Of a DNA stretch of 34,318 nucleotides, positions 3,397 through 20,002 are shown in pieces. Made by a program: the position numbers and the translations under genes. The first letter of the stretch is position 1; each line of letters starts with the position of its first letter. The DNA is from a virus (Duplodnaviria; Heunggongvirae; Uroviricota; Caudoviricetes). The stretch is taken from the IMG/VR virus record IMGVR_UViG_2534681675_000028; one strand, written 5' to 3'. The notes beneath the pieces were generated by a model. The model did no database searches and had not been told where the DNA came from. It saw nothing but the letters and a program-made list of their open reading frames with translations.

Positions 3397-3462
3397 GTGG
3401 TCACATGCCTTACAGCATGACCGCCGCCAATATAATTCGGAGGCGGCGATCAGGGTTGAACA

Positions 3463-5946
3463 TTAAAAATCAGCCTGACTCGGGATCAGTTTTTGTATTG
3501 TAGCTGTAACGTATTTTGCCTGGTGACGGGCGTCATCCAGTGCATTGTGGTGCACGCCTTCGAATGGAATAACGGTTCTGGCATCAAAGTCGATTGTTTT
3601 TCCCAGCTCAACGATTGTGCGTACATCGCGATCGTTGTGGTAGCGCCACGGGCAGGGGATGTCCAGACGTTCGTATGAGGTGCGCAAAATTGCGTTATCG
3701 AAAGTTGCACCATTACCCCATACCTGAACGAATTTTTCATCTGAGTATTCGTTGATGAACTCCCGAAACCGCGAAAGGGCATCCTTCAGTTTTACCTGGT
3801 CTGTTAAAATGGCAGCTCTGGCTTCACTGGACTGCTTCAGCCACCATTCGATGGTTCCACCGTCAGGAACAGCCCCTGTATTCATTGCGTCAGTCAGACT
3901 GATAACGATATAAAATACTGGCCCGATTTCCCCTGTTTGTGGGTCGAAGAAAACCGCACCAATAACCACGATGGGCGCATTGGTGTTGGTTCCCATTGTT
4001 TCAAGGTCGATCATCAGGTGGTACCACACTCTGCTGGTGGATGTGATAACGTGATGACCGTTCACCGCAATTAAGGGATCTGCCGTCTCGCCAGTTTCAT
4101 TATCGCTGGCGTGGTCCTGAGCGCTGCCAGCATTCTCCTTGTGTGGATGTTCAGCGCCTTCCATTTCCTCCGGATCATTTTCCTGAACTTCAACCTGATT
4201 CTCTTCATCGAATGTTTCCTGGTATGTTGCGTCGCCCATCACCGCACCACAATCAGGGCAGTTGCCGCCGCCGGTCTGACCGCAGGCGGTGCAGACTTTT
4301 TCCGCTTCCTGTTGCGCTACTGGCTCAGGTTGTTTCGTTTCTGGCTCGTTTTGTAACGCATTTGGGCTGTTTTGTTCCGCGTTCTGGTCGTTCTGTTCCG
4401 TTTCTTGCTGGTTCTGATTCACAGAATCGCGGGTTTCAATCCCCTTCACCCATTTCGGATCATTCGGGTCGCTAATCCCTGCAACAAATTCACTACGTGA
4501 TACAGCAAGCAACTTATCGGCGTCAGGCTGGCTGATATTGGCTGCCTGCATAATTTTGTTTACTTCGTCAGCGGTAACTTTTACCGGCTCCGGTTGTGCG
4601 ATCGTGTCAGATGCACCAGTATTTTGTTGTGAACCTGAGTATGTACCGTTTTTGCGGGCAAAATATTCTTCTTTCGTGATTTCAGTAGCCCCTGCAGCCA
4701 GCGCCTTATTCAGACCAGAAAGTTTGTTTGCACGACCGTATTTTTCGCCATCCTTGTCGGTGAAGAGGAAGTAGAACGGCCCCTCACGCTCTACAGATGA
4801 TTCGACTTCCACTTTGCATTCGGTTTTTTCGTTGTCGTGAATTGCCGTTTCCACTGCGTCAGTTTCTGGTACTGGCGACGAGAGAGTATTAGCTGTGCCC
4901 TGATTTGTTCCTTCGTCATCTTCAAACACGCCCTTTGTAGTCAGGTATTCAGTGATGTATTTGTTCAGTGCCACGGGATCTTTGTGAATGTCGATCGGGC
5001 GTTCACGGACAAGGCCAAAAATAGTCTGGCGGCTGTAGCGAAGCGCATCAGGTTGTTTGCGCATTGATGCGGAGATGCGCTTCCAGTCTTCGCGATCTCT
5101 GGCGATAACTTCATTTTTAGCCCAGCGAAGGATGCTGCCGTCAATGTTTCCGGCATCCGCATCACCAGGCCAGAGATAGTAGGCCAGCTCCCTGTCCAGG
5201 GTTTTCCATGTCTGCTTGTATTCGCGATGAATGGCGGCAGTTACAGGAGGGATTTTTTCTGCTGGGTTTTCAGTGTGCTGTCGGTTGGCTTTGGCGCGGG
5301 CAAGATCAACAACAGACGTGTATTTTCCAGTCTCTTTGCGCTCTGCGTCCTGCCGTTTTTTCCAGTTACGTAATTCAACCTGAATTTCGGGCCATTTGGT
5401 ACCCGGCTTACATTTGTGTTTAACCCATCCGATAGCGAACAGTTTGCGTTCCGGATACATAGCGTTAATTTCAGGCGTTTTCATCAGTGCTTCAACGATA
5501 TGCCCGTCAAAGGTAGCCACGTCTTCTTGCAGTAATTCCTGCGCGTCAATCGCCATATCAACGGTGATGTTTTCACATGTACCGAACTTAACCAGGACCG
5601 CGTTCTGTACTTCAAGGGACAGCTTGTCAAAATTGACGTTAATAGGATCGGATTCTGGTTCGACCGGAATAAAGGAAGCGGATTCCTCATCCCAGTGGTT
5701 TTCCTGCATATATTCGGTATCCCAGGAGTCGATAGCAGGGCGGGGCATGCCGGGTTTATCTTCGCAGACAAGAAATTTATAAGCGCAGTCCTGAGCAGCA
5801 GGATATTGCTCCAGGAATTGCCAGGTAAATTTGGCACGGGCGCGGCGTTCATCACCGGCTTCAATGGCAGTGGCTACAGCAACTGCGCCCTCTTCTTTTA
5901 TTGCCTGTTCGTCCGGAATGGCGGCGCAAATAAAGACTTTACTCAT
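3463..5946 (-). CDS. Large prophage exonuclease: N-terminal region, acidic Q/E-rich linker with Cys4 zinc ribbon, C-terminal DnaQ-like DEDDh 3'-5' exonuclease domain
   Basis: 827-aa ORF; C-terminus has the Exo motifs MIDLETMG, WGNGATFDNAIL and HNALDDARHQAKY; CTACGQTGGGNCPDCG zinc ribbon. Confidence 0.7.
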   Translation of the reverse strand: MSKVFICAAIPDEQAIKEEGAVAVATAIEAGDERRARAKFTWQFLEQYPAAQDCAYKFLVCEDKPGMPRPAIDSWDTEYMQENHWDEESASFIPVEPESDPINVNFDKLSLEVQNAVLVKFGTCENITVDMAIDAQELLQEDVATFDGHIVEALMKTPEINAMYPERKLFAIGWVKHKCKPGTKWPEIQVELRNWKKRQDAERKETGKYTSVVDLARAKANRQHTENPAEKIPPVTAAIHREYKQTWKTLDRELAYYLWPGDADAGNIDGSILRWAKNEVIARDREDWKRISASMRKQPDALRYSRQTIFGLVRERPIDIHKDPVALNKYITEYLTTKGVFEDDEGTNQGTANTLSSPVPETDAVETAIHDNEKTECKVEVESSVEREGPFYFLFTDKDGEKYGRANKLSGLNKALAAGATEITKEEYFARKNGTYSGSQQNTGASDTIAQPEPVKVTADEVNKIMQAANISQPDADKLLAVSRSEFVAGISDPNDPKWVKGIETRDSVNQNQQETEQNDQNAEQNSPNALQNEPETKQPEPVAQQEAEKVCTACGQTGGGNCPDCGAVMGDATYQETFDEENQVEVQENDPEEMEGAEHPHKENAGSAQDHASDNETGETADPLIAVNGHHVITSTSRVWYHLMIDLETMGTNTNAPIVVIGAVFFDPQTGEIGPVFYIVISLTDAMNTGAVPDGGTIEWWLKQSSEARAAILTDQVKLKDALSRFREFINEYSDEKFVQVWGNGATFDNAILRTSYERLDIPCPWRYHNDRDVRTIVELGKTIDFDARTVIPFEGVHHNALDDARHQAKYVTATIQKLIPSQADF

Positions 5947-6416: not shown

Positions 6417-6993
6417 TATCGCGTCCTCAACAATGAATTTTGTGATGCGGTGCCTGGTGCCTCCAGGTGACGTTAACCAGTTAACAATTAACGCCGGATA
6501 CAGAGAATCCACCCATAACACTGTTTTTGGTTTTAACTGTTCCGCGTGCGCTGAGCCGCATTCACCGCATCACAAAATTCACTTTTAAAAAAGGGCGGCA
6601 GAGCAGTCACGGAGTAAAACTGATACCGCCAAATGTCACCAGAATATTGATAACAGAGGGCGTTGTAGCGGGGTTGTCACTTAAGCGTATGGTCAACCTG
6701 ACAACCCGGTGTCCTCAACGGGGAAAGGCGTCCCTCCCACCCCCGCCATACTTACCGCCGCGCCATTTCGCGGGTCGCCACAACCGGAAGCGCACGGTCG
6801 AATTAAATTTAACGACACCGTGCAGTGAGACGAACTTCGCCGTGCGCTTTCGTGTTGTGTGCCTGCTTTTAACCACGTCAGGCGAGGTGGTTTCCGTCAT
6901 TCCCCAACGACAGGAAATCTGTATAATCTGGGTATCCCCAACGATCCAAGGAAATCATATGACAGAGCAAAGAGCACAAGCAGGTGATGGTGT

Positions 6994-7200
6994 ATGGACC
7001 GGGATGATATTCTTGACAGAATTTTTTATGGCTATTTTCTTGAGCAACTGTTTTCTGTAGCGACTGGTCGTCTCGATAAACTTCTCTCAGTAGTGAGTAT
7101 TATCCTCGGTTCATCTGTCATTGGCGGATTCATTCCGGAAATTTCTGGCGTTTTTATTGTTGTGATCGCAACCGTCCAAACGATTTATGGATTCGGATAA
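6994..7200 (+). CDS. Small protein with C-terminal hydrophobic/transmembrane segment, opposite in orientation to the surrounding early-left genes
   Basis: 68-aa ORF with AGGTGA Shine-Dalgarno 6 nt upstream; AT-rich; C-terminal LLSVVSIILGSSVIGGFIPEISGVFIVVIATV. Confidence 0.35.
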   Translation: MDRDDILDRIFYGYFLEQLFSVATGRLDKLLSVVSIILGSSVIGGFIPEISGVFIVVIATVQTIYGFG

Positions 7201-7215
7201 AAGTCAGGTAATACC

Positions 7216-7440
7216 ATGAGAAAATCCGCAGAATATTTGCAGCTTTTTGATGATGCAGAAAAATATTCTGATTCGGAATTGAAAATTCAGTTAAAAACTC
7301 TGGAAAAAACAGATAATCATATTTGGTCATCACTTAAAGATATTGCGATCTTAAAAACACAGATCAAAATAGGCGTCTCCATCGAACAACAAGAGAAGTT
7401 GCCCACAAAATCCAAATTGATGCGATTTCTTTGTGGTTAG
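7216..7440 (+). CDS. Hypothetical 74-aa protein, second gene of the plus-strand pair
   Basis: ORF with AGGTAA Shine-Dalgarno 5 nt upstream, 15 bp after the previous gene; AT-rich. Confidence 0.35.
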   Translation: MRKSAEYLQLFDDAEKYSDSELKIQLKTLEKTDNHIWSSLKDIAILKTQIKIGVSIEQQEKLPTKSKLMRFLCG

Positions 7441-7529
7441 GAATATCCAGATTGTTAAAGAGCATGCCGGAGGTTTATCCGTGTCCGGCGCACGCACTTC
7501 ATCTGCGGAGAACTACTTGAGCTCATTGG

Positions 7530-7745
7530 TCAGTAGTTTTCAATCACTCGCGAAACGTTTAATGCCGCGCTTTTTGCCAGAGTGGTAATATCCTGCTCCG
7601 CTGACACCAGTTCTTTAGAGAGGCGCTCTTTGTAGTCAGCGGCCTGCTTCAGGTCATTAATGGCGCGTATCTTTCCGCACATCCATTCGTAAATTTCATC
7701 CTCGGTATAGTCTGGTGCGATGATGACGGGTTCTCGTTTCTGCAT
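7530..7745 (-). CDS. Hypothetical early-left protein
   Basis: 71-aa ORF with GAGG Shine-Dalgarno 7 nt upstream. Confidence 0.45.
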   Translation of the reverse strand: MQKREPVIIAPDYTEDEIYEWMCGKIRAINDLKQAADYKERLSKELVSAEQDITTLAKSAALNVSRVIENY

Positions 7746-7774
7746 ACTGATTCCTCGCGGTGCCGCTTCGCTTA

Positions 7775-7903
7775 TCAGTCGTTAGATTTTGCCGAACTGG
7801 AAAGCGCCTGTTTAAACTCACTGAAGCTGAGAGCTTCTTCGCCTTCGGCAAGGCCTTCGAAGTATTCTTCGTAAGCCTTTTCCATGATTGCGTCGAAATC
7901 CAT
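7775..7903 (-). CDS. Small acidic 42-aa protein (MDFDAIMEKAYEEYFEGLAEGEE…), not in the ORF track because it is under 60 aa
   Basis: Manual translation of the minus strand; AGGTGA Shine-Dalgarno; start overlaps upstream stop (TGAtATG), typical operon packing. Confidence 0.35.
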   Translation of the reverse strand: MDFDAIMEKAYEEYFEGLAEGEEALSFSEFKQALSSSAKSND

Positions 7904-7904
7904 A

Positions 7905-8060
7905 TCACTCACCTGAATTTCTTTCCAGCCAGCGACGCGCGCCAGCTTCGGTTTTAAACGTTTTGCTTCTGGTATACGTCATCGCGGTGAACGTGCCGTC
8001 CTGGTTGGGAAACACGCCGTACACCAGAGATTCGTTGTTGCCAAGATCGATAGTATCCAT
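7905..8060 (-). CDS. Small 51-aa early-left protein (MDTIDLGNNESLVYGVFPNQDGTFTAMTYT…), possibly Rac YdaF-like
   Basis: ORF 7905-8141 trimmed to the internal Met, which has a well-spaced GAGG Shine-Dalgarno; first gene downstream of the putative OL/pL region. Confidence 0.4.
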   Translation of the reverse strand: MDTIDLGNNESLVYGVFPNQDGTFTAMTYTRSKTFKTEAGARRWLERNSGE

Positions 8061-8242
8061 GCTGACCTCATTTCCCCTTAACGCCGGGGTAGCGGAACAA
8101 AAACCTGCTGCATAGTTATTAAAGTTGAACCCTGCCGTCATGTTCTTACGCCTCGGGCTGGCTACTTAACCCCTGACCACTGCCGGGTAACTCTAGGTAT
8201 TGCCCTGCGTTCTGTGGGGCGGGGTGGGTTGGCATGTATATA

Positions 8243-8358: not shown

Positions 8359-8778
8359 TTAAGAGGCTTTTTGTTTTTTCTTTCGTGCTAACTCTTCGTA
8401 AATTGCATTGTACTTTTGTTTTTTCTCCTCAAGAGTTTTTAAAAGTTCATCTGTCTCACTGTCAGGGAGCTCGTCCAGAAGATCAATGATGATTTTTTGT
8501 CTTGGATTTAACTCCTGATAGAAACGTACCTGTCCACTTTCTTCTGTATCCTCTCCCAAAAGATAGGTTGGTGTTGTTCCAATGAGTGTTGCTAATTCCC
8601 TTAATTTCTCTCGGCGAGGAATTGTTTCGCCATTAAACCATTTGCTAACCGCTTTTGGTGTTAATTTCATTCGACGGGCAATTTCTGCCTGCCTTCCATG
8701 TTGTTCATAACCAGCGTTTTCACAGGCTAGCGCAAGCCTACTGGCGAACTCTTTACGCGCTTTATCTTCATGAACCAT
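8359..8778 (-). CDS. Prophage repressor (CI-like function), XRE-family HTH, no S24 peptidase domain
   Basis: 139-aa ORF with HTH (QAEIARRMKLTPKAVSKWFNG); divergent from a cro-like gene; no Shine-Dalgarno upstream (possibly leaderless like lambda cI). Confidence 0.7.
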   Translation of the reverse strand: MVHEDKARKEFASRLALACENAGYEQHGRQAEIARRMKLTPKAVSKWFNGETIPRREKLRELATLIGTTPTYLLGEDTEESGQVRFYQELNPRQKIIIDLLDELPDSETDELLKTLEEKKQKYNAIYEELARKKKQKAS

Positions 8779-14912: not shown

Positions 14913-15123
14913 AATGGCTTTTGTGTGCATGTTAAATAAAGAATACATGGCATCATTTAATGATGTCATGTGTAACGAGCGAAAAGCCTTTTGAACGGTT
15001 TTCATAAGTTATATTGAAAGATAAAATTGCTGCGGGTGCTTGAGGCTATCTGCCTCAGGCATGAACACCAACGGCAGATAGATAAAAGCCCCACCCGACT
15101 ATAAATCGAAGTGAGGCCCCTAT

Positions 15124-15336
15124 ATGCTCGTCACATACAGATTGCCTCTTACGGACCGAAAGGTCAAGGAGAAGCAGGCTATGAAGCAGCAAAAGGCGAT
15201 GCTAATCGCCCTGATCGTCATCTGTTTAACCGTCATAGTGACGGCACTGGTAACGAGGAAAGACCTCTGCGAGGTACGAATCCGAACCGGCCAGACGGAG
15301 GTCGCTGTCTTCACAGCTTACGAACCTGAGGAGTAA
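15124..15336 (+). CDS. mok: mok-like reading frame (N-terminally extended, in frame with hok)
   Basis: ORF in the same frame as hok sharing its stop codon, the arrangement I recall for chromosomal mok/hok pairs. Confidence 0.5.
   Translation: MLVTYRLPLTDRKVKEKQAMKQQKAMLIALIVICLTVIVTALVTRKDLCEVRIRTGQTEVAVFTAYEPEE
15181..15336 (+). CDS. hok: Hok/Gef-family type I toxin (51 aa)
   Basis: MKQQKAMLIALIVICLTVIVTALVTRKDLCEVRIRTGQTEVAVFTAYEPEE closely resembles Hok (…[25 protein letters not shown]…); AGGAG Shine-Dalgarno. Confidence 0.8.
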   Translation: MKQQKAMLIALIVICLTVIVTALVTRKDLCEVRIRTGQTEVAVFTAYEPEE

Positions 15337-19848: not shown

Positions 19849-19924
<76 letters not shown>

Positions 19925-19927
19925 TAT

Positions 19928-20002
<75 letters not shown>

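What the first reader, a model, noticed from the sequence alone, without database searches (positions are those of the whole stretch)
6960..7460. Oppositely oriented AT-rich two-gene insert inside the leftward early operon
Two plus-strand ORFs, each with a Shine-Dalgarno (68 aa with a C-terminal hydrophobic segment, and 74 aa), are embedded antisense within the minus-strand early-left operon. This is the region where lambda carries sieB/kil-type accessory genes, so this may be a superinfection-exclusion or toxin-antitoxin-like insert.
Basis: partly seen in the sequence, partly recalled or inferred. Interest (0 to 1): 0.45.

Follow-up and report, generated by a model that had tools for sequence, protein, structure and literature searches.

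The report
Broken prophage SLATT-like membrane gene
The "two genes" are the two halves of one prophage gene for a small two-helix membrane protein, cut by a premature stop codon; intact copies belong to an unstudied gene pair found in many enterobacterial prophages that may block other phages.

Summary
The ORFs exist as described: plus strand, 37% GC, antisense inside the minus-strand ydfABC-dicF-dicB early-left operon of an E. coli lambdoid prophage. But they are one gene. ORFs 6994-7200 and 7216-7440 share a frame. In relatives codon 69 is CAA, giving one 148-aa ORF; here it is TAA (7198-7200). The allele is real and clonal, seen in at least 50 assemblies.

The intact protein is under purifying selection (dN/dS about 0.1). 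It defines a family of about 139 clusters across Enterobacterales, annotated only as hypothetical. A confident AF2 model (pLDDT 94.5) shows a long helical hairpin carrying two transmembrane helices. Foldseek, NCBIfam SLATT_4 (35 of 87 members, below cut-off) and PADLOC all point to a remote, stand-alone SLATT-like effector.

The real two-gene unit is a short proline-rich upstream ORF plus this gene, conserved in 12 of 13 lineages. Here a 118-bp deletion removed the upstream ORF, so both parts are damaged.

The cassette sits antisense in prophage accessory-gene slots, including the exact slot of sieB in K-12 Rac, but it is not SieB. An exclusion or abortive-infection role is inferred, not shown.

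The parts
6994..7440 (+). Single 148-codon gene for a SLATT-like two-transmembrane protein, here a pseudogene or split allele
   Evidence: One intact 447-nt ORF in L001, L002 and L003. dN/dS 0.10-0.11. AF2 pLDDT 94.5. SLATT signals.
7198..7200 (+). Premature stop TAA (Gln69 CAA to TAA) that creates the apparent two ORFs
   Evidence: Alignment and codon check. No exact 61-nt match in 5,426 complete E. coli genomes. The exact 68-aa and 74-aa products are on record in at least 50 assemblies whose loci are identical to the window.
6994..7200 (+). N-terminal fragment (68 aa): amphipathic helix plus the complete transmembrane hairpin
7216..7440 (+). C-terminal fragment (74 aa from internal Met75): the cytoplasmic helical part. 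It would be made only if ribosomes re-initiate 15 nt after the stop.
   Evidence: Re-initiation is inferred, not shown.
6959..7060 (+). Remnant of the proline-rich upstream ORF. Only its first 9 codons survive, then it runs out of frame across the start of the main gene (33 codons).
6976..6986 (+). Deletion junction. One copy of the 11-nt repeat ACAAGCAGGTG remains; relatives with the upstream ORF have two copies 118 bp apart.
   Evidence: L003 copies at 3436 and 3554.
6901..6944 (+). Putative promoter and 5' leader: direct-repeat boxes TCCCCAACGA at 6901-6910 and 6935-6944 flanking a perfect TATAAT at 6922-6927, followed by SD AAGGA and ATG 6959
   Evidence: The same layout occurs in distant loci, with the two boxes changing together. 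The consensus promoter scan did not call it because the -35 is weak. Function is inferred.
6861..6893 (.). Conserved 33-nt boundary element with interleaved complementary arms (GCCTG/CAGGC and AACCAC/GTGGTT) at the left edge of the insert
   Evidence: It flanks the cassette on both sides in L006, L018 and L022, also precedes Rac sieB, and is truncated in Qin.
7466..7489 (.). Hairpin GCCGGA-N12-TCCGGC at the right edge of the insert. It belongs to the phage backbone, being present in K-12 Qin, which lacks the insert.
6593..6644 (-). DicF sRNA (context: shows that the insert lies inside the dicBF early-left operon)
   Evidence: 77 bits, gathering score 48.
7530..7745 (-). ydfC-like early-left gene on the other side of the insert (context)

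Best explanation
The region holds one gene, not two. It encodes a 148-aa inner-membrane protein: an N-terminal amphipathic helix, a tight two-helix transmembrane hairpin, and a small cytoplasmic helical domain. It is a remote, stand-alone member of the SLATT fold group.

In intact relatives it is the second gene of a compact cassette. The parts, in order, are a leader with two identical boxes around a -10-like element, a 26-56-codon hydrophilic proline-rich ORF, a gap of 4-18 nt, and the SLATT-like gene. The cassette is inserted antisense into prophage accessory-gene slots: the early-left operon (the slot that holds sieB in Rac) or the site between Q and the lysis genes.

Inferred mechanism: the cassette is transcribed from its own promoter in the lysogen, independently of and convergent with the repressed phage operons. 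Translation of the membrane protein is coupled to, or limited by, the proline-rich upstream ORF. On an unknown cue during superinfection the protein oligomerises and permeabilises the inner membrane, aborting the incoming phage, as proposed for SLATT effectors of CBASS, Thoeris VII and DRT10.

In this window the cassette is decayed. A 118-bp deletion between 11-nt repeats removed the upstream ORF, and CAA to TAA at codon 69 cut the protein just after the membrane hairpin, so it is most likely non-functional.

Shown: the gene structure, the mutations, conservation, fold, and the positions and orientation of the cassette. Inferred: promoter use, translational coupling, membrane permeabilisation and any anti-phage role.
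For: One gene: same frame, with CAA in L001, L002 and L003 against TAA here.

Real coding gene: dN/dS 0.10-0.11. It is full length in 72 of 5,426 complete E. coli genomes. There are 139 clusters at 50% identity, and named sources include Enterobacter, Klebsiella, Serratia, Yersinia, Providencia, Edwardsiella and Salmonella.

Fold: AF2 pLDDT 94.5, pTM 0.85, helices 3-44 and 48-86 plus three short helices; hydrophobic residues 27-68.

SLATT relation:
- NCBIfam SLATT_4 is hit by 35 of 87 members (best 2.2e-5) and SLATT_1 by 11. The P0058 alignment is collinear: residues 25-102 against profile positions 25-106 of 154.
- PADLOC RT-associated SLATT and CBASS 2TM effector models are hit weakly.

Cassette: an upstream Pro-rich ORF (10-31% Pro) occurs in 12 of 13 independent lineages, ending 4-18 nt before the main start.

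Position and orientation: antisense in the early-left region in the window, L001-3, L005, L006, L008-10, L016 and L018-23; antisense between Q and the lysis or late genes in L007 and L017. Rac sieB occupies the same slot, also antisense.

Decay after loss of the upstream ORF: among the 39 IMG/VR loci with upstream sequence (of 40 found), 31 of 31 with the upstream ORF have an intact main gene. Of the 8 with the deletion, 3 are disrupted, by two different mutations.

Literature on SLATT as a membrane cell-killing effector: bioRxiv 10.64898/2025.12.03.692087, 10.64898/2026.04.29.721553 and PMC9503650.
Against: - No experiment or transcript data were available. The promoter is only a TATAAT with a weak -35, and the consensus scan did not call it.
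- No curated SLATT model is reached: Pfam gives nothing at E <= 0.1 for 87 members, and the best NCBIfam score is 24 bits against a cut-off of 55. Part of the similarity could reflect transmembrane composition.
- Foldseek E-values are weak (5.6e-3 or worse), and no solved structure matches.
- Known SLATT effectors work with a signal-making enzyme (CD-NTase, TIR or RT). None is adjacent here, so the trigger is unknown.
- PADLOC 2023 has no matching single-gene system.
- The split allele persists unchanged in at least 50 assemblies, so residual function of the fragments cannot be excluded.
Confidence: 0.55

Rival explanations
1. Toxin-antitoxin or addiction-type module. The membrane protein is a toxin, and the small proline-rich upstream product, or its translation, neutralises it and so stabilises the prophage.
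For: The pair is tightly linked with the small gene first, as in type II TA operons. Main-gene disruptions are seen only in loci that lost the small ORF (3 of 8 against 0 of 31), as expected if the unprotected toxin is counter-selected. The window also carries hok/sok elsewhere, so such modules are tolerated in this phage.
Against: Six loci (L001, L032-34, L047, L049) keep the large gene intact without the small ORF. The small product is a low-complexity Pro/Lys-rich peptide with no family match and no DNA-binding fold signal, and it is conserved mainly in composition. The cassette sits in prophage accessory-gene slots rather than on plasmids (0 of 95 places on plasmids).
Confidence: 0.13
2. 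A lytic-cycle accessory of the phage itself, such as a holin-like or antiholin-like membrane protein or a host-shutoff factor akin to Kil/DicB, rather than a lysogen-expressed exclusion factor.
For: It is a small two-transmembrane protein. It neighbours kilR or dicB in the early-left region and lies between Q and holin in phage EKP1 and L007.
Against: It is always on the strand opposite to the early or late operon it sits in, so PL or PR' transcripts cannot express it. It carries its own leader. It is low in GC and patchily distributed among otherwise near-identical phages, in 72 of 5,426 genomes, while the flanking backbone occurs in 4,560. There are no holin family hits.
Confidence: 0.12
3. 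The split allele is still functional. The 68-aa membrane hairpin and the 74-aa cytoplasmic part (re-initiated at Met75) act as two subunits, or the C-terminal fragment acts as a regulator. This would match the first reader's two-gene picture and would parallel the Esc product made from an internal start in P22 sieB (recalled from memory, not checked here).
For: The stop falls exactly at the kink between transmembrane helix 2 and the next helix (DSSP break at residue 66). An SD-like AGGTAA and an ATG follow 15 nt downstream. The allele is stable in at least 50 assemblies with no further changes.
Against: The identical sequences indicate a young clone, so lack of further decay says little. Met75 is not conserved outside the E. 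coli clade. A second, unrelated frameshift in the same deletion clade points to loss of constraint. One member has an IS inserted immediately downstream (L029).
Confidence: 0.08
4. Chance ORFs in an AT-rich non-coding spacer of the dicBF operon.
For: The ORFs are short, there are no Pfam hits, and all annotations read 'hypothetical'.
Against: dN/dS is 0.1. Homologues extend down to about 20-30% identity with a confidently predicted common fold. The insert is absent from K-12 Qin, which has only about 35 nt at this place.
Confidence: 0.02

Closest known systems
[quoted passage not shown]
   Same: Same predicted architecture: N-terminal helix, two-transmembrane hairpin and a cytoplasmic helical extension. 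SLATT-annotated proteins make up most of the named Foldseek hits, and there are recurrent sub-threshold, collinear hits to SLATT_4 and SLATT_1 and to PADLOC SLATT/2TM effector models. It is carried on mobile elements in a phage-conflict context.
   Different: It reaches no curated cut-off. It is not next to any cyclase, TIR, SLOG or reverse transcriptase. Instead it is paired with a short proline-rich ORF and a repeat-bearing leader. At 148 aa it is at the small end of the range, and its trigger is unknown.
SieB superinfection exclusion protein (Pfam PF14163) of lambda, P22 and Rac
   Same: Same slot and same antisense orientation as Rac sieB, between the kil/sRNA genes and the DUF1391 gene. 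Similar size (148 against 162 aa) and layout: two N-terminal hydrophobic helices followed by a cytoplasmic tail. Both are preceded by the same boundary element.
   Different: No sequence or profile relation: hhalign probability 0.4%, and no PF14163 hit in 87 members, whereas Rac SieB scores 1.5e-31. SieB has no proline-rich upstream ORF in Rac.
Leader-peptide or upstream-ORF control by proline codons (for example the mgtL/mgtP leaders and EF-P-dependent polyproline pausing; from general knowledge, not tested here)
   Same: A short ORF ends 4-18 nt before the main start, with PPP or PP runs or XPXP repeats near its end in most lineages.
   Different: No alternative RNA structures linking the upstream ORF to the main SD were found. 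Some lineages lack consecutive prolines (L002, L003, L007, L008, L021). The peptide motif H(I/M)PEK(D/N)IR is conserved among the closer lineages, which suggests the peptide itself may matter (dN/dS 0.26-0.52).

Membership tests
SLATT domain superfamily | Two adjacent transmembrane helices forming a hairpin, flanked by an N-terminal helix and C-terminal cytoplasmic helices | tested here: met
   AF2 model at pLDDT 94.5 with helices 3-44, 48-65/67-86, 93-105, 113-126 and 138-147. Hydrophobic stretch at residues 27-68 with a 2-3-residue turn.
SLATT domain superfamily | Match to a curated SLATT sequence model at or above its cut-off | tested here: not met
   Pfam: no SLATT family at E <= 0.1 for any of 87 members. 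NCBIfam SLATT_4: best 24.1 bits against a cut-off of 55.
SLATT domain superfamily | Consistent remote sequence similarity across the family | tested here: inconclusive
   SLATT_4 is hit by 35 of 87 members (best E 2.2e-5), SLATT_1 by 11 and SLATT_fungal by 2. PADLOC RT-associated SLATT is hit by 6 and a CBASS 2TM effector model by 8. The hits are collinear but below threshold, and transmembrane composition may contribute.
SLATT domain superfamily | Structural similarity to SLATT-annotated proteins | tested here: inconclusive
   In Foldseek against BFVD, 11 of the top 20 hits carry a SLATT name (most at probability 0.99-1.00, TM-scores up to 0.61), but E-values are only 5.6e-3 to 0.35 and the two best hits are unnamed. 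No solved SLATT structure was found in the PDB searches. The afdb50 library was unavailable.
SLATT domain superfamily | Gene-neighbourhood link to a signal-generating enzyme (CD-NTase/SMODS, SLOG, TIR or reverse transcriptase) | tested here: not met
   None was seen in any of about 20 independent contexts. The neighbours are phage early or late genes and a small Pro-rich ORF.
SLATT domain superfamily | Ligand- or signal-triggered membrane permeabilisation | not testable with these tools
   Requires expression and membrane-integrity assays.
SieB (PF14163) | Sequence membership in PF14163 | tested here: not met
   No hit in 87 members. Positive control: Rac SieB at E 1.5e-31. hhalign of the family profile against Rac SieB gives probability 0.4%.
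SieB (PF14163) | Location in the early-left region with its own, opposite-strand expression, as in Rac | tested here: met
   Rac order is kilR(-) kilS(-) sieB(+) ydaF(-); the window order is dicB(-) DicF(-) gene(+) ydfC-like(-).
SieB (PF14163) | Aborts lytic growth of superinfecting lambdoid phages | not testable with these tools
   A phenotype assay is needed.
Type II toxin-antitoxin module | The upstream small gene encodes a folded antitoxin that is indispensable while the toxin gene is intact | tested here: not met
   The small product has no family match and is a low-complexity Pro/Lys-rich peptide. The large gene is intact in six loci lacking the small ORF: L001, L032-34, L047 and L049.
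Holin / lysis cassette protein | Encoded in the late lysis operon on the late-transcript strand, next to the endolysin | tested here: not met
   Where it is near lysis genes (L007, L017) it lies on the opposite strand. Most copies are in the early-left region. There are no holin family hits.

The most novel reading that the evidence does not exclude
Stand-alone SLATT-like proteins paired with a proline-rich leader ORF are a previously undescribed, self-contained prophage exclusion module that has replaced SieB in its slot. The membrane effector would be controlled not by a nucleotide-making partner enzyme but by translation of the Pro-rich upstream ORF. For example, ribosome pausing at PPP/XPXP, sensitive to EF-P or to translation stress caused by an infecting phage, would set how much effector is made. 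The co-varying box repeats and the repeated 33-nt boundary element would be its regulatory and recombination signals. Loss of the leader ORF would then lead to decay of the effector gene, as seen in this window.
Probability: 0.15. Interest if true: 0.7.

Novelty: new variant of a known kind. Interest (0 to 1): 0.42.

Why it matters
For this window the result is corrective. Databases list two 'hypothetical proteins' (68 and 74 aa) that are really one nonsense-split gene, and the copy is probably dead.

Beyond the window, the locus points to an uncharacterised family with no Pfam or NCBIfam assignment (PHROG 6315, 'unknown function'). It is spread through prophages of Enterobacterales and always forms the same small cassette in accessory-gene slots.

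If the SLATT-like protein works alone, it would be a minimal system for asking how SLATT effectors are triggered and how they breach the membrane. Recent DRT10 work calls this a central open question. It would also add another occupant to the sieB exclusion slot of lambdoid phages.

Tried and rejected
- Pfam, PHROGs and NCBIfam on the intact protein alone gave nothing useful: PHROG 6315 of unknown function and a chance S1-domain hit.
- The afdb50 fold library was not available.
- The first AF2 run, with 6 close sequences, was mediocre (pLDDT 69) and was replaced by the 87-sequence run.
With A3 it found nothing in one-genome-per-species contigs.
- A profile search of the 5.8-billion-sequence set found only more unannotated family members and no bridge to Pfam-annotated SLATT proteins.
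- An Rfam E-value scan of 6640-7520 gave only chance hits in the AT-rich stretch. The promoter and terminator scan called nothing on the plus strand upstream of the gene.
- RNAalifold supports only a short hairpin in the leader.
- Literature searches for the accessions, the PHROG id, and SLATT with prophage or with sieB hotspots found no description of this family. Burroughs et al. 2015, the original SLATT paper, is not held.
- I first took the nonsense allele for a private mutation or sequencing error. That was rejected when the exact products turned up in at least 50 assemblies.

Full report
**1. What is in the sequence**

The window is a lambdoid (Rac/Qin-like) E. coli prophage. On the minus strand lie, in order:
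- a repressor gene (8359-8778);
- a DUF1391 gene, ydfB and a ydfC-like gene (7530-8141);
- the DicF sRNA (6593-6644; Rfam 77 bits);
- dicB, a DUF1482 gene and an 827-aa exonuclease.

Between the ydfC-like gene and DicF lie two plus-strand ORFs, 6994-7200 (68 aa) and 7216-7440 (74 aa), each with an AGGT upstream. They are 36.9% GC, against 49.8% for the window.

**2. It is one gene**

Both ORFs share a frame and are separated by TAA at 7198-7200. A genome 99.7% identical over this region (06-00048, L001) and two more distant alleles (L002, L003) have CAA at that codon. Each has a single 447-nt ORF that PGAP annotates as one 148-aa hypothetical protein.

The second 'start' (Met75, preceded by AGGTAA) is made of ordinary internal codons. 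Met75 is not conserved in distant homologues.

No complete RefSeq E. coli genome in the collection carries the TAA. Even so, the exact 68-aa and 74-aa products are on record in at least 50 public assemblies. Their loci are identical to the window over 3.2 kb. The allele is therefore real and belongs to a young clone. Intact alleles are far commoner, on more than 800 contigs. They are full length in 72 of 5,426 complete genomes.

**3. The gene is real and widespread**

dN/dS is 0.10-0.11 against the 90%-identical allele, and dS is saturated against the 60%-identical homologues. An exhaustive profile search finds 139 clusters at 50% identity, nearly all stand-alone proteins of 145-180 aa. Named sources include Enterobacter, Klebsiella, Serratia, Yersinia, Providencia, Edwardsiella, Citrobacter, Salmonella and Arsenophonus, and all are annotated 'hypothetical' with no Pfam domain. 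Two isolated temperate phages carry it: Providencia phage PSTNGR2lys and phage EKP1.

**4. What the protein is**

With an 87-sequence alignment AF2 gives a confident model (pLDDT 94.5, pTM 0.85). It shows a long helical hairpin (helices 3-44 and 48-86) followed by three short helices. Residues 27-68 are hydrophobic, the turn is 2-3 residues, and basic residues follow the second helix. This suggests an N-in/C-in two-transmembrane hairpin (the topology is inferred).

Several lines point to SLATT:
- PDB searches gave only generic helical matches.
[quoted passage not shown] E-values are only 5.6e-3 to 0.35 and the two best hits are unnamed.
- Scanning every family member against NCBIfam, 35 of 87 hit SLATT_4 (best 2.2e-5), 11 hit SLATT_1 and 2 hit SLATT_fungal. 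The hits are collinear but well below the curated cut-off, for example 24 bits against 55.
- PADLOC gives weak hits to RT-associated SLATT and CBASS 2TM effector models.
- Pfam gives no SLATT hit.

I conclude that this is a remote, SLATT-like family, not a certified member. SLATT proteins are described as membrane-spanning cell-killing effectors of CBASS, type VII Thoeris and DRT10. How they are triggered is an open question.

**5. The true cassette**

Upstream of the gene, 12 of 13 independent lineages have a short hydrophilic ORF of 26-56 codons. It is 10-31% proline, often has PPP, PP or XPXP near its end, and stops 4-18 nt before the main start. Among the closer lineages the motif H(I/M)PEK(D/N)IR is conserved (dN/dS 0.26-0.52). 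It has no family match.

In the window and its nearest relatives this ORF was removed by a 118-bp deletion between two copies of ACAAGCAGGTG. What remains is a 33-codon out-of-frame remnant starting at 6959.

IMG/VR returned 40 prophage loci, 39 of which include upstream sequence. All 31 with the upstream ORF have an intact main gene. Of the 8 with the deletion, 3 are disrupted by two different mutations: Q69* and a frameshift near codon 104. These loci are related, so this is a hint rather than a statistic. It fits decay, or counter-selection, after loss of the leader ORF.

**6. Leader and boundaries**

Ahead of the upstream ORF the layout is conserved across lineages whose proteins are only 30-60% identical:
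- a 33-nt element with interleaved complementary arms (window 6861-6893);
- a box (6901-6910);
- a -10-like hexamer (TATAAT, 6922-6927);
- the same box again (6935-6944);
- then the SD and ATG.

The box sequence differs between lineages, but its two copies change together: TCCCCAACGA, CCACAACG, CTCACACACAAA and TTCCACGCAAAA.

The 33-nt element flanks the cassette on both sides in L006, L018 and L022. It also precedes sieB in Rac and is truncated in Qin. Compared with K-12 Qin, which has about 35 nt here, the insert spans roughly 6894-7465 and ends at a backbone hairpin (7466-7489). Other phages, such as mEp460, carry a different plus-strand ORF at the same place. This is an exchange hotspot for accessory genes.

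**7. Position and orientation**

In every context examined the cassette is antisense to the operon it interrupts. Most copies are in the early-left region near the repressor and the kil/dicB genes. Two are between Q and the lysis or late genes.

In K-12 Rac the same slot holds sieB, also antisense. The family is not SieB: there is no PF14163 hit, the positive control scores 1.5e-31, and hhalign gives probability 0.4%. The architecture is similar, however.

**8. Most likely mechanism (inferred)**

The cassette is probably a lysogen-expressed accessory unit. Its membrane protein would be made at a level set by translation of the proline-rich upstream ORF. On superinfection it would permeabilise the membrane, giving exclusion or abortive infection. 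Induction of the resident phage would drive convergent early-left transcription across the cassette and could silence it.

In this window the cassette is decayed and probably inert. Rival readings are given with their tests: a TA-like module, a lytic accessory, and a still-functional split protein.

**9. Verdict**

The ORFs are real, but they are one gene.
The slot and the protein class fit, but this is not SieB, it is probably not a TA pair, and no function has been shown.
- The family is a new variant of a known kind: a stand-alone SLATT-like effector with a leader ORF.
- The copy in this window is a pseudogene, so interest is moderate.

Noticed in passing
window 6861-6893; also L006 2999 and 3743, L018 4812 and 5872, L022 4759 and 5526, L014 (Rac) 4567: A conserved 33-nt element (GCCTG-cTTTT-AACCAC-gtCAGGC-gag-GTGGTT) has two interleaved complementary arm pairs, a pseudoknot-like or double-palindrome layout. 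The arms show compensatory changes: CCAC/GTGG becomes CTAC/GTAG in L008 and CCTC/GAGG in L016, and GCCTG/CAGGC becomes CCCGG/CCGGG in Rac. It flanks the cassette on both sides in three loci, precedes Rac sieB and is truncated in Qin. It may be a recombination boundary or a regulatory site for accessory genes in this slot.
   Followed up: partly
window 6901-6910 and 6935-6944; L007, L012, L016, L006, L008, L018 leaders: Two identical 8-12-nt C/A-rich boxes flank the -10-like hexamer. The box sequence differs between lineages, but both copies always match each other, which suggests a function that needs identical copies. Some look like (ARN)n Hfq-type motifs (my reading, untested).
   Followed up: partly
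IMG/VR loci L032-L071: Disruptions of the main gene (Q69* in L042 and L044; a frameshift near codon 104 in L071) occur only among the 8 loci that lost the upstream ORF. All 31 loci with the upstream ORF are intact.
   Followed up: partly
E. coli O145:H28 genomes (H110-H121): Seventeen complete genomes keep only the first 92 nt of the gene (92% identity), with nothing annotated there. This is another, larger decay event at the same slot.
   Followed up: no
L029 2001-3207: In one assembly carrying the split allele, an IS3-type element (HTH_Tnp_1 plus rve) is inserted right at the end of the C-terminal fragment, which becomes 78 aa.
   Followed up: no
L004 (phage mEp460) 3420-3620; Other lambdoid phages share the backbone up to about window 6904-6920 and then carry an unrelated plus-strand ORF at the same slot. 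The slot therefore holds exchangeable antisense cargo.
   Followed up: partly
window 7205-7218: An internal SD-like AGGTAA plus ATG (Met75) is conserved in the E. coli clade of the intact gene. It recalls the internal start that yields Esc within P22 sieB (from memory). It could give a C-terminal product even from intact alleles.
   Followed up: no
window 15034-15183 (+): A Sok antitoxin RNA (Rfam RF01794, 102.9 bits) indicates a hok/sok-type type I toxin-antitoxin locus in the same prophage.
   Followed up: no
window 19849-20002 (+): Two adjacent tRNA genes, Thr (TGT) and Gly (TCC), lie in the phage late-regulatory region.
   Followed up: no
L024 (Arsenophonus nasoniae) 5001-5504: This is the one homologue examined that lacks a Pro-rich upstream ORF. 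It follows a DUF3164 gene on the same strand, outside a lambdoid early-left context.
   Followed up: no
NCBIfam hits: Seven family members also give weak hits to TIGR04402 'mobilome CxxCx(11)CxxC protein' over the same transmembrane region. That mobile-element family may contain a related two-transmembrane module.
   Followed up: no
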